Shown here: piece after piece, positions 42,001 through 45,000 of the stretch | How the letters are laid out: each line of letters starts with the position of its first letter | Position numbering within the stretch: the stretch's first letter is position 1 | Assembly (NCBI GenBank): GCA_040398005.1 | Contig: JBBAUX010000004.1 | Coordinates: forward strand, 28,257-92,256 | Length of the DNA stretch: 64,000 nucleotides | Reading direction: 5' to 3' | From: Opitutales bacterium | GTDB taxonomy: Bacteria > Verrucomicrobiota > Verrucomicrobiia > Opitutales > UBA953 | Program-made: the position numbers

Positions 42001-45000
42001 GGTTTGGGACGGATTTATTAGGTCGTGATTTATTGTCCCGCGTTCTGCAAGGTGGCTTAATCTCGATTACCGTTGGTTTGATTGCTACGCTGGTCGCCTT
42101 ATTCGTCGGAGTGATTTATGGCATCGTGGCAGCGGAGCTGGGTGGTCGCTTCGAAGATCTTTCGATGCGGGTGATTGATATCATCAGCACGCTTCCGTTA
42201 ACCCTGATTGTGGTTTTATGTACGGTCGTTTTTGGACAAAATATTTGGCTAATCTTTTTGGCGGTGGGTGGAGTCTCTTGGCTGACGATGGCACGCATTA
42301 TTTGCACGAAGACGCGTCAGCTGAAGAGCCGGCAATTTGTCGATGCCTCGGTCGCTTTAGGTCAATCCCGACTAGGAATTATTTTACATCATTATCTTCC
42401 CAACCTTGCGGGCACCATCGCCGTTTACGCGACGCTGACGATTCCGAATGTATTAATGCTCGAAGCCTTTGTGAGCTTCTTGGGCTTGGGTGTTAAGGCG
42501 CCCATGACATCGTGGGGTTTATTAATTAAAGAAGGCACGGATGTGATGGAGCAGTGTCCTTGGCTTTTAATTATCCCTGCCACCACTTTTGCTCTATCAC
42601 TGCTTTCGCTGAGTTATTTAGGTGATGGCTTGCGCGATGCTTTTGACCCGCGTAGTAATAAAAATTAATCATGCCCCTTCGACGTTATATCGTGATTAAG
42701 TCTGACGGTTCAGAGGGTCAGGAGTTTGAAGTAGATTTACCGAAGGATGCGCCCGACTTCACTTTGCATCCCGTGACCAAGGAGCCCTGTCGTCGGGTGA
42801 TTGATTCACCCAGTCTAACCATTAAGTATGGTGAAGGTGCGATGAAACAATCTGTCTCTGACGAAAAATTGCGCCAAGCCGGTTTTCAGAAATTAGAAAA
42901 AGACGGCGAAGGTGGATGGAACAAAATTAATTAACCCCTAAAACGAAACGCCCCGCGGTTGGGCGGGGCGAGACGTCGTCAGGGTGAGGCGTTTCCGCCG
43001 TTGAAAAATTTACTTAAGCTTTGGTCGTCGCGCGTGCGCGTTTGACCAGTGACTTAGCGGTGTCGGAAGGCTGAGCTCCGAGTTTGATCCAATGATCAAC
43101 GCGTTCGACGTTGATCACGAGAGGGATGGCTTTGCCGCGTGCGCTTGGGTTGTAGTGACCCAAGACTTCAACGAAGCGACCGTCGCGACGGATGTGTTGT
43201 TCGGCCACAACGAGACGATAGGTCGGCTCGTTTTTGGTTCCGAAGCGTTGGAGGCGAATGCGTAACATAAATAAGGAGAAGGTGAGAGAAGGCCTAACTT
43301 GGGTTTAGCCAAAAGAGGAAAGAGAAAAAACGCAGGCGGAGGGAGGGGAGTCAAGCCTGCACCTCCCAAACTGTGCTAATTTATTTAAGGAGTTATTCAC
43401 GATTTAACTAAAAACACGATTTAAGTGCCTAATAATGAACGGCTTCATTCGCTTGAAGTCGCTCATTTAAATTAGTCCATCGGGCAGAATCGGTTGAAAT
43501 ATAAAAAAACCCGCCAGAGCGGGTCTTTTAAAGTTAATCGAAAACGATTACTTAGCAACGGTTTCAGCCGATGGATCGTAACGCTTTTCTTTAACCTTGG
43601 TCGCGGACTTACCTTGGCGACCACGGAGATAGTAGAGACGAGCCTTCATGACTTGTGATACGCGTTCGACTTCGATTTTTTCGATGTTCGGAGAGTGAAC
43701 TGGGAAAGTACGTTCAACGCCTTCGCCGAAAGATACGCGGCGAACGGTGAAGGTCTCTTGAACGTTACCACCCTTGCGGGAGATTACGATACCTGAGAAA
43801 ACCTGCGTGCGCTCTTTGTCGCCTTCGCGAACTTTGGTGGAGACGCGTACGCCGTCACCGACTTTAAATGTGTCGTGACCGCGGTTAGCTTTAAGTTGCG
43901 ACTGGGTCGCGAAGTGGAGGAGGGGATGGTTGCTCATGGCTAGTTTTATTTGTCTTCCAGTAGGTCCGGTCTTCGTTGCTTTGTCTTCTCGATTTGCTTT
44001 GTCCGACGCCATTTTTCGATTTCGGCGTGGTGGCCTCCGAGGAGGACCGGGGGCACTTCGAGACCATCATAAACAGCGGGTCTAGTGTACTGCGGAAAGG
44101 CGAGCAACTTGCCGTTGTAGCTATCCCCAGTCAAGGAGTTTTCCTCACCAAGTACCCCGGGGATCTGCCGACCGACACAATCGACCACAATACAGGCCGG
44201 AAGGGTGCCATTGGTTAACACGTAGTCCCCCACCGATATTTCACGGGTAACGCGGGCATCCCGGAAGCGCTGGTCGATACCCTCGTAGTGGCCAGAAACG
44301 AGGATTAAGTGGGACTTCTTGGCTAATTCGCGGGCTAAATCGTTGGTCAGTTGCTCGCCATCGGGGCAAAGGTAGATGATTTCGGCCCCAGGGGTGGCCA
44401 GGCCATCCACGGCATCAAACAGGGGCTGGCAGGTCATTAACATGCCGGGACCCCCGCCGTAAGGGACATCGTCCACTTTGTGATGTTTATCTTTCGACCA
44501 GTCGCGAAGGTTATGGGCTTTGAACTCAATCAGCCCTGTTTCAATGGCACGACCAATGACCGATTCCTGCAAGAAGCCGTTGGCCATTGCAGGGAAGAGA
44601 GTGATGAGATCGATGCGCACAGCCATACGATTGAATACACTAACCACGAATAGCCCTCACAGTGCAAGACGTGGATTTGATTAAATTTTAAAGTGTTTAA
44701 ATTAAGAGAGAAAGTAGCCAATTAGTTTGTGGATTTATAAAGATTTAGGAATTTGACCCTTTCACCTTCTCCCTTCCTCCTCTTCATTATCCCAATAATT
44801 CAATTTAATGCCTTCGCCTTTCGATAATCTTTTGCCGCGTTACGATGCCGTCGTGATTGGCGCTGGTTTAGGTGGAATGACCGCCGCTAATAATTTAGCG
44901 AAATTTGGTCGAAAGGTTTTATTGGTTGAGCACCACTATCAATTAGGTGGATTGGCGACATTCTTCAAACGCGCGGGTGGACATATTTTTGATATTTCTC

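What a model noticed while it worked through the whole genome (the two positions that open the first line are those of the whole stretch)
43014..44626. Free-living bacterium without Era, RimM, RimP and RsgA: a pared-down 30S assembly kit
This genome has no gene for the GTPase Era, nor for RimM, RimP or RsgA; where rimM sits in most bacteria the order is trmD-rplS-(279 nt)-rpsP with no rimM, and rimP is missing before nusA. The same holds for every near-complete Opitutales genome searched (0.8 to 8.3 Mb) and, for Era, for the whole class Verrucomicrobiia, while other classes of the phylum have Era. Boldest reading: a large free-living clade matures its 30S subunit without factors thought nearly indispensable, so it must have unknown substitutes or an rRNA that folds unaided; the 2023 review of Era limits Era loss to extremely genome-reduced groups. 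New would be a non-reduced, partly cultivable Era-less clade in which to find [...]
Evidence so far: TIGR00436 (era, cut 116 bits): best here 65 bits = the two GTPase domains of Der at C1:285538-286512; no match at E<=1e-35 in 0 of 61 Opitutales genomes >=95% complete, own included, 27 families; phylum sample: 0 of 17 same order, 0 of 13 other orders of the class, 29 of 60 genomes of other classes; control 10 of 10 named bacteria. In the family sample 1 of 24 has a true Era (278 bits), on a 3.4-kb contig that also bears the only RNase III of its genus sample, probably foreign. RimM PF01782 0 of 17; RimP_N PF02576 0 of 17; RsgA_GTPase PF03193 over cut-off in 4 of 17, not here (best 22 bits, ABC ATPases); controls 10 of 10 bacteria each. 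pfam.tsv: KH_2 only on S3; present are RbfA g00321, Ksg [...]
(Added by a program. Inside this text positions count along the whole contig: contig position 28,257 is position 1 of the stretch shown here. "Call 12" and the like, gene names such as g00115 and contig names such as C1 are that model's own, and its searches are not shown. The text may have been shortened before it was handed on; [...] marks where a part breaks off. The agent that wrote the report below was given it as the finding of a first reader that could run no searches.)

Follow-up and report, generated by a model that had tools for sequence, protein, structure and literature searches.

The report
PVC bacteria lacking Era, RimM, RimP
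This bacterium, like its whole class and most of the wider Planctomycetes-Verrucomicrobia-Chlamydiae group, has no genes for several helpers of small-ribosomal-subunit assembly that reviews call nearly universal, so the gap is an old trait of the lineage and not special to this genome.

Summary
On the minus strand the window reads trmD, rplS, a 279-nt gap with an intrinsic terminator, then rpsP, with no rimM. The 1.44-Mb genome has no Era, RimM, RimP or RsgA.

The interpretation needs widening and toning down:
- RimM was over cut-off in 0 of 293 genomes (Verrucomicrobiota 151, Chlamydiota 61, Planctomycetota 81).
- RimP_N was found in 1 of 151 Verrucomicrobiota and 12 of 81 Planctomycetota.
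- Era was found in 0 of 134 genomes of the window's own class (0.9-6.4 Mb), 143 of 267 from other classes of the phylum, 0 of 80 Chlamydiota and 7 of 101 Planctomycetota.
- RsgA is patchy: 11 of 26 in the order.

An RpoB tree of 30 chosen genomes needs at least 4-5 changes of Era state. YbeY, KsgA, a divergent RbfA, Der, Obg, HflX, BipA and LepA remain. The 16S rRNA is full length with a canonical 3' end.

So these are ancient gene losses across the lineage, not losses driven by genome reduction. No substitute was identified. The 2023 Era review names Chlamydia and notes patchiness in Planctomycetota, but six searches found nothing on Verrucomicrobia, RimM or RimP. The window's own family additionally lacks RNase III.

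The parts
43946..44647 (-). trmD, tRNA (guanine37-N1)-methyltransferase. The ORF runs from GTG 44647; the likely real start is ATG 44626.
   Evidence: ORF; PF01746 at 212.8 bits.
43548..44012 (-). rplS, ribosomal protein bL19. The longest ORF overlaps the trmD end by 67 nt. An internal ATG at 43937, about 8 nt after the trmD stop, is the more likely start (inference).
   Evidence: ORF; PF01245 at 136.6 bits, matching residues 36-143.
43269..43547 (-). 279-nt spacer between rplS and rpsP. It has no rimM and no ORF with a RimM match. It contains the rplS terminator and a pyrimidine-rich rpsP leader.
   Evidence: Sequence; no RimM match in six frames at E<=10; only sub-threshold Rfam hits.
43504..43529 (-). 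Intrinsic-terminator-like hairpin (11-bp stem, 4-nt loop, T tract) that ends the trmD-rplS unit.
43014..43268 (-). rpsP, ribosomal protein bS16. It is transcribed on its own, downstream of rplS rather than upstream of rimM-trmD as in most bacteria.
   Evidence: ORF; PF00886 at 79.9 bits.
42949..42970 (-). Second terminator-like hairpin (8 G-C pairs), 44 nt after the rpsP stop.

Best explanation
The locus is an ordinary trmD-rplS operon followed by a separately transcribed rpsP. There is nothing hidden in the gap. rimM is not there because the whole Planctomycetota-Verrucomicrobiota-Chlamydiota (PVC) lineage lacks it.

The missing 30S assembly factors are real, old, lineage-wide gene losses of different depth:
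- RimM is missing across all three PVC phyla sampled.
- RimP is missing across Verrucomicrobiota, with weak-scoring remnants in a minority of Planctomycetota.
- Era is missing from the entire class of this genome, from several other lineages of the phylum, from all Chlamydiota sampled and from most Planctomycetota.
- RsgA is missing sporadically.

The losses are not tied to genome reduction.

Inferred, not shown: 30S maturation runs on the factors that remain (RbfA, KsgA/RsmA, YbeY, and the GTPases Der, Obg, HflX, BipA and LepA) acting on a full-length 16S rRNA with a canonical h45 and anti-SD 3' end. Assembly factors of this kind speed up and proofread folding rather than being chemically indispensable. 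A lineage with a low demand for ribosome production (one rRNA operon is assembled here) could therefore tolerate or compensate for their loss.
For: Own genome: searches give no Era, RimM, RimP or RsgA. One search names every MMR_HSR1-type GTPase found: Obg, Der, YchF, HflX, FeoB, IF2, EF-Tu, TypA, LepA, EF-G and CysNC. None is Era-like.

Independent unfiltered searches in the script box:
- An HMM of 10 PVC Era proteins hits only the GTPase part of Der (129 bits) and nothing on the KH part.
- An HMM of 3 planctomycete RimP ORFs gives a best E of 0.3.

Synteny: there is no rimP-sized same-strand ORF upstream of nusA in the own genome or in 5 of 5 other genomes of the class inspected.

Clade counts:
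- Era: 0 of 134 in the class, 143 of 267 in other classes; 0 of 80 Chlamydiota; 7 of 101 Planctomycetota.
- RimM: 0 of 151, 0 of 61 and 0 of 81.
- RimP_N: 1 of 151 and 12 of 81.
- RsgA: 56 of 151.

Positive controls in the same genomes: RNase III 150 of 151, RpoB 30 of 30, NusA 5 of 5, YbeY 5 of 5 and KsgA 5 of 5, RbfA 5 of 5 at E<=1e-3.

Single-contig genomes of 3.1-4.3 Mb (G054, G060, G063) also lack Era, RimM and RimP.

The 16S rRNA matches the full Rfam model 1-1533 and ends ...GGATCACCTCCTT.
Against: Absence is shown by profile search only. RimM and RimP are short, fast-evolving proteins. This family's RbfA scores only 29.5 bits against a cut-off of 51, so small factors here can drift near the detection limit.

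The genome search scores only the candidates from a loose first look, for example 6 per genome.

For the Chlamydiota and Planctomycetota samples the tool reported no completeness figures.

The own assembly has 23 N-gaps and is 93.9% complete.

The kinetic 'low demand' argument and the sufficiency of the remaining factors rest on knowledge from E. coli and B. subtilis, not on any result here.

The patchy presence of Era could equally reflect one ancient loss followed by lateral regains. I could not resolve that.
Confidence: 0.75

Rival explanations
1. Orthologues of RimM and RimP, and less plausibly Era, exist but have diverged beyond profile detection and moved away from their usual neighbours.
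For: RbfA in this family is down to 29.5 bits. Planctomycete RimP_N hits are mostly weak, 22-52 bits, and are not next to nusA in the 3 loci examined. The own genome sits on a long RpoB branch, 0.44 against 0.14-0.18 for its sister rows.
Against: RimM is over cut-off in 0 of 293 genomes across three phyla, including slowly evolving ones. A PVC-derived RimP HMM run with --max finds nothing in the own genome. The canonical positions are empty. For Era, the GTPase domain is easy to detect and every GTPase found is assigned to another family.
Confidence: 0.1
2. Non-orthologous replacement: an unrecognised PVC-specific protein, or changes in r-proteins or rRNA, has taken over the roles of Era, RimM and RimP. 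On this view the pathway is rewired rather than merely pared down.
For: Era is essential or nearly so in model bacteria and is called an 'addiction' in the 2023 review (PMC10582724, passages read). Yet clades with genomes of up to 6.4 Mb (own order) and Planctomycetota samples that include genomes of up to 9-10 Mb lack it. Its partner YbeY and its 16S binding site are retained. In E. coli, suppressors of the rimM deletion map to S13, S19, h31 and h33b (PMC9032327, passages read), which shows that such compensation is possible.
Against: No candidate was found. There is no extra TRAFAC GTPase and no extra KH_2 protein. Nothing is encoded in the rimM or rimP positions. No phylogenetic profiling was run.
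Confidence: 0.3
3. The absences are artefacts of an incomplete assembly or of the search pre-filter.
For: The own genome is 93.9% complete with 23 N-gaps. Only a subset of first-look candidates is scored.
Against: The same result holds in 133 other genomes of the class, all at least 97% complete, including single-contig genomes. The same searches find Era in 143 genomes of other classes and in 10 of 10 control bacteria. Unfiltered hmmsearch over all own ORFs agrees.
Confidence: 0.02

Closest known systems
Era-less bacterial lineages listed in the 2023 Era review (Dependentiae, Chlamydia, most CPR; patchy in Planctomycetota, Elusimicrobiota and Synergistota), PMC10582724
   Same: There is no recognisable era gene. 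My sample of Chlamydiota (0 of 80) and of Planctomycetota (7 of 101) agrees with the review's statements, read as passages.
   Different: The review's text attributes the loss to extreme genome reduction with simplified ribosomes. Here the Era-less class spans 0.9-6.4 Mb and the 16S rRNA of this genome is full length. The word Verrucomicrobia does not occur in the review. I could not see its Figure 1A, which may colour the phylum one way or the other.
Reduced sets of ribosome-biogenesis factors in CPR/Patescibacteria (Amikura et al. 2025, PMC12641178)
   Same: era, rimM and rimP are missing together, and the presence of assembly GTPases follows class lines.
   Different: That paper treats non-CPR bacteria as one block in which era, rimM and rimP are more than 90% conserved (passages). 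'Verrucomicrobi' and 'Planctomycet' occur 0 times in its main text. Its supplement as read gives genome lists but no table by phylum. PVC genomes keep der, obg and rbfA, which many CPR lack.
Canonical rpsP-rimM-trmD-rplS operon of E. coli and most bacteria (recalled textbook knowledge)
   Same: trmD and rplS are adjacent and co-oriented, and rpsP lies nearby on the same strand.
   Different: rimM is missing. rpsP lies downstream of rplS, behind a terminator, instead of leading the operon.

Membership tests
Era (TIGR00436) | Era-type GTPase domain followed by a C-terminal type II KH domain in one protein of about 300 aa | tested here: not met
   The best own-genome hit is Der (65 and 53 bits for its two GTPase domains). 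The PVC Era HMM aligns only its GTPase columns to own ORFs, and nothing aligns to the KH columns. KH_2 is over cut-off only at C10:18274-18504.
RimM (TIGR02273 / PF01782) | RimM N-terminal beta-barrel plus PRC barrel, usually encoded between rpsP and trmD | tested here: not met
   No match at E<=10 in the own genome. Over cut-off in 0 of 151 genomes of the phylum. The rplS-rpsP gap and the trmD upstream region hold no such ORF.
RimP (PF02576 RimP_N) | RimP N-terminal domain, usually encoded directly upstream of nusA-infB | tested here: not met
   No match at E<=10. The planctomycete RimP HMM gives a best E of 0.3. Upstream of nusA there is a 206-nt gap and then a divergent ABC-F gene.
RsgA/YjeQ (TIGR00157 / PF03193) | Circularly permuted GTPase with an OB fold and a zinc finger | tested here: not met
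   The best PF03193 hit is 22 bits, on ABC-type P-loops. TIGR00157 gives no match at E<=1e-8 in the own genome, while 56 of 151 genomes of the phylum have it.
Era-less lineages as described in the literature | No era gene | tested here: met
Era-less lineages as described in the literature | Extreme genome reduction | tested here: not met
   Era-less genomes of the class range from 0.9 to 6.4 Mb. This genome is small (1.44 Mb) but encodes histidine, pantothenate, CoA, lysine (DapL) and citramalate-pathway enzymes in the window alone.
Era-less lineages as described in the literature | Simplified ribosome (shortened rRNA, lost r-proteins) | tested here: inconclusive
   The 16S spans the whole Rfam model 1-1533 in 1529 nt and keeps the GAUCACCUCCUU end. 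The 23S is 2808 nt over the full model. The r-protein set was not inventoried.

The most novel reading that the evidence does not exclude
RimM and Era were lost at or near the base of the PVC superphylum, and Era was regained laterally in a few lineages. On this reading the Era-less state of Chlamydia is inherited rather than a product of its reductive evolution. PVC bacteria, including large and cultivable ones, would then mature the 3' domain and the h44/h45 region of 16S rRNA by a distinct route that depends on a still unidentified substitute or on compensating changes in r-proteins or rRNA.
Probability: 0.3. Interest if true: 0.75.

Novelty: new member of a known kind. Interest (0 to 1): 0.55.

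Why it matters
Era is treated as almost impossible to lose, and RimM and RimP as conserved throughout bacteria (reviews read). This result shows a large, ecologically important, partly cultivable group of bacteria with normal-sized genomes doing without them.

Two consequences follow. The question of what Era, RimM and RimP are actually needed for becomes testable in organisms that never had to be depleted of them. And the statement that Era loss is confined to extremely reduced genomes needs correcting.

There is also a practical point. TIGR00436, TIGR02273 and PF02576 are, as far as I recall, among the marker genes used to score genome completeness, so their absence across a lineage biases such estimates for PVC genomes.

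Tried and rejected
1. Something hidden in the 279-nt gap. There is no Rfam family at threshold, only chance-level hits driven by the terminator hairpin. There is no RimM remnant in six frames.
2. A divergent rimP upstream of nusA. None was found in the own genome or in 5 other genomes of the class.
3. A second look for RimP with an HMM built from planctomycete RimP ORFs gave only noise.
4. Regex searches for YbeY and KsgA motifs recalled from memory found nothing. They were superseded by family searches that did find both genes, so the recalled motifs were simply poor.
5. The V. spinosum versus E. coli ortholog table (supplement file 9 of PMC12283558) lists der but not era, rimM or rimP. It also omits rbfA and ybeY, so it is weak evidence either way.
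6. Looking for a per-phylum factor table in the supplement of PMC12641178. I found only genome lists in the part read and in the hits shown.
7. The search for an Akkermansia Tn-seq gene table found no such paper in the library.
8. The tool's own tally 'over cut-off 264 of 401' for Era was rejected as a count, because Der's two GTPase domains summed in one frame pass the cut-off. I counted single full-length or split hits that include the KH part instead.
9. Earlier notes of this scan held nothing on this genome or topic.

Full report
**What is at the coordinates.** On the minus strand the window carries:
- trmD (44647..43946; PF01746, 212.8 bits)
- rplS (44012..43548; PF01245, 136.6 bits)
- a 279-nt spacer (43269-43547)
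- rpsP (43268..43014; PF00886, 79.9 bits)

A terminator-like hairpin (43529..43504) starts 19 nt after the rplS stop, and a second one (42970..42949) follows rpsP. So rpsP is its own transcription unit behind trmD-rplS, not the leader of an rpsP-rimM-trmD-rplS operon. The spacer holds no ORF with a RimM match. It has only chance-level Rfam hits centred on the terminator. Its sequence is a T-rich terminator tail followed by a pyrimidine-rich leader. The neighbouring genes are unrelated: opp permeases and a small ORF on the plus strand downstream, and a divergent FAD-dependent oxidoreductase upstream.

**Own genome.** The window is G000:C4:28257-92256 of a 1,443,074-bp assembly. The assembly has 14 contigs, 23 gaps of 100 N, is 93.9% complete and has about 48% G+C.
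- TIGR00436 (Era) gives 65 and 53 bits on the two GTPase domains of one 549-aa protein, which NCBIfam calls Der (420.5 bits).
- All other MMR_HSR1-type hits are Obg, YchF, HflX, FeoB, IF2, EF-Tu, TypA/BipA, LepA, EF-G and CysNC.
- RimM and RimP_N give nothing at E<=10. RsgA_GTPase gives at most 22 bits, on ABC ATPases.
- nusA-infB-rbfA lie at C2:28676..24595. Upstream there is only a 206-nt gap and a divergent ABC-F gene.

Two unfiltered checks in the script box agree. An HMM of ten Era proteins taken from PVC loci hits only GTPase columns of Der, IF2, FeoB, HflX and Obg, and nothing in its KH part. An HMM of three planctomycete RimP ORFs gives a best E of 0.3.

**Clade level, own phylum.** For Era I searched 401 genomes that were at least 90% complete, the own genome included. 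The tool's tally 'over cut-off' is inflated by Der, so I counted by hand from the table.
- Own, genus and family 7, same order 75 and rest of the class 52 make 134 genomes of 0.9-6.4 Mb. Their best E is never below 6.6e-27, and these best hits lie in frames of 450-555 aa, which is Der.
- Of the 267 genomes of other classes, 139 have one full-length hit (E<=2e-45). Four more have a hit split by an insert but including the KH part. That gives 143 with Era and 124 without.

Results for the other factors, each over 151 genomes:
- RimM (TIGR02273): 0 over cut-off, with one 18.9-bit hit.
- RimP_N: 1 of 151, a 34-bit hit at bases 250-450 of a contig of G135.
- RsgA (TIGR00157): 56 of 151. Within the order it is 11 of 26, and in the rest of the class 15 of 24. 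It is not in the own genome.

That these genomes can be searched successfully is shown by RNase III (150 of 151), RpoB (30 of 30), NusA (5 of 5), and YbeY and KsgA (5 of 5 each). Five further genomes of the class, three of them single contigs, have no RimP-sized same-strand ORF upstream of nusA. This was judged from an ORF listing only.

**Shape of the Era pattern.** I picked 30 of the 401 genomes: the own genome plus one per family for 29 families of both states. The choice was mine and was made knowing their Era state. I built an RpoB tree from them (quick IQ-TREE, LG+G4, midpoint root). Two rows are partial (G003 with 796 aa, G004 with 398 aa), and none was dropped.
- The nine rows of the own class form one group (SH-aLRT 86), all Era-minus.
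- A second well-supported group of five families (f22, f55, f29, f39, f53) is also all Era-minus, with an Era-plus family as its sister.
- Further Era-minus families are scattered among Era-plus ones.
- The tree needs 5 changes of state, of which 4 are forced by well-supported branches.

This is illustrative and not a statistical test.

**Neighbouring phyla.** A published Chlamydiales 16S probe sequence gave named loci in Chlamydiota and, incidentally, in Planctomycetota. These gave handles G401-G405. The tool reported no completeness figures for the phylum samples drawn around them.
- Chlamydiota: Era 0 of 80 at E<=1e-30, with one further genome not scored; RimM 0 of 61.
- Planctomycetota (2.1-10.2 Mb): RimM 0 of 81; RimP_N 13 of 81 at E<=1e-3, 12 of them over cut-off and mostly 22-52 bits; Era 7 of 101 at E<=1e-28.

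Two of the four best planctomycete Era hits lie on contigs of about 3 kb and score 284-289 bits, so they may be foreign. Taken together, RimM was over cut-off in 0 of 293 PVC genomes.

**What remains.**
- YbeY is present (C8:34101-34457, 85.7 bits), and so is KsgA (C7:60756-61526, 185.2 bits).
- A syntenic but very divergent RbfA is present (C2:24625-24954, 29.5 bits against a cut-off of 51). It scores 36-72 bits in four relatives.
- The only assembled rRNA operon (C1) reads 16S, tRNA-Ala, tRNA-Ile, 23S, 5S. Its 16S covers Rfam model positions 1-1533 and ends ...GGATCACCTCCTT, so the sequence that Era binds in other bacteria is intact.

**Interpretation.** What is shown is that orthologues are absent, and at what phylogenetic depth. 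What is inferred is how 30S assembly manages without them. From established work on model bacteria (reviews PMC10582724 and PMC9032327, passages read):
- RimM, RimP and RsgA are dispensable but costly to lose.
- Era is essential or nearly so.
- Defects can be suppressed by changed dosage of other factors or by changes in S13, S19 and 16S helices.

I therefore think the most likely picture is a pared-down pathway that runs on RbfA, KsgA, YbeY and the remaining GTPases. It may be helped by compensating changes that I did not look for. An unknown substitute is a live alternative (about 0.3). No candidate emerged: there is no extra GTPase or KH protein, and nothing sits in the vacated positions.

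**Lifestyle.** The window alone encodes hisD, hisA, a HisN-like phosphatase, panC, coaD, citramalate synthase, LL-diaminopimelate aminotransferase, fumarase and peptide permeases. That fits a self-sufficient cell. It is the only basis for calling it free-living, and the genome is small.

**Literature.** I ran six full-text searches.
[quoted passage not shown] It never mentions Verrucomicrobia. I could not see the figure.
- The 2025 survey of ribosome-biogenesis factors treats non-CPR bacteria as a block with era, rimM and rimP highly conserved. It does not mention either phylum in its text. Its supplement, as far as I read it, has no per-phylum table.
- The V. spinosum essential-genome paper, the M. 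infernorum genome paper and the 2012 PVC genome-content paper say nothing on these genes.

So within the papers held here I found no statement that Verrucomicrobia lack Era, or that PVC bacteria lack RimM and RimP. Curators of marker sets and orthology databases may well know it.

**Verdict.** The finding is a trait of a very large clade, not of this window. It extends a known kind (Era-less lineages) to non-reduced bacteria and adds PVC-wide loss of RimM. No mechanism was demonstrated.

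Noticed in passing
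whole genome G000; relatives G192, G195, G276, G315, G381: RNase III (TIGR02191) is found in 150 of 151 genomes of the phylum sample. The one without it is this genome, tested at E<=1e-10. Five other genomes of its family also lack it at E<=1e-3. The family (1.4-2.3 Mb) therefore seems to have lost RNase III on top of the phylum-wide losses.
   Followed up: partly
L206 (G000:C1:23300-31500): arms 577-607 and 2415-2445; 16S at 794-2322: A 31-nt, 87% complementary inverted repeat brackets the 16S rRNA gene. This is the kind of long-range stem that RNase III normally cuts, yet no RNase III gene was found, so some other nuclease must process the precursor.
   Followed up: no
phylum sample: The 50S factor EngB/YihA (TIGR03598) occurs only in two families of the own order (f3 15 of 15, f4 5 of 8). 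It is in 0 of the other 128 genomes sampled, the own genome included. That looks like a local regain or retention.
   Followed up: no
whole genome G000: No MnmE/TrmE is among the MMR_HSR1-type GTPases of this genome. It was not checked with its own family model or in relatives.
   Followed up: no
G000:C2:24625-24954 (-); RpoB tree: RbfA of this genome scores only 29.5 bits (cut-off 51) although it is full length and syntenic. The genome's RpoB branch is about three times longer than those of its sister families. This is a fast-evolving lineage.
   Followed up: partly
window 10875-19669 (+): Four consecutive large ORFs (806, 725, 708 and 695 aa) all carry TPR-type matches (MamA/PrsT-like, below cut-off). 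This may be a tandem paralogue array.
   Followed up: no
L204 (G551:C30) and L205 (G568:C49): Two of the seven planctomycete Era hits sit on contigs of about 3 kb and score 284-289 bits, higher than any Era in Verrucomicrobiota. They may be contamination or recent transfers.
   Followed up: no
window 43269-43300 (-): The bases just upstream of the rpsP ATG are pyrimidine-rich (…caccttctccttattt ATG) with no visible Shine-Dalgarno motif, although the 16S rRNA keeps CCUCC.
   Followed up: no
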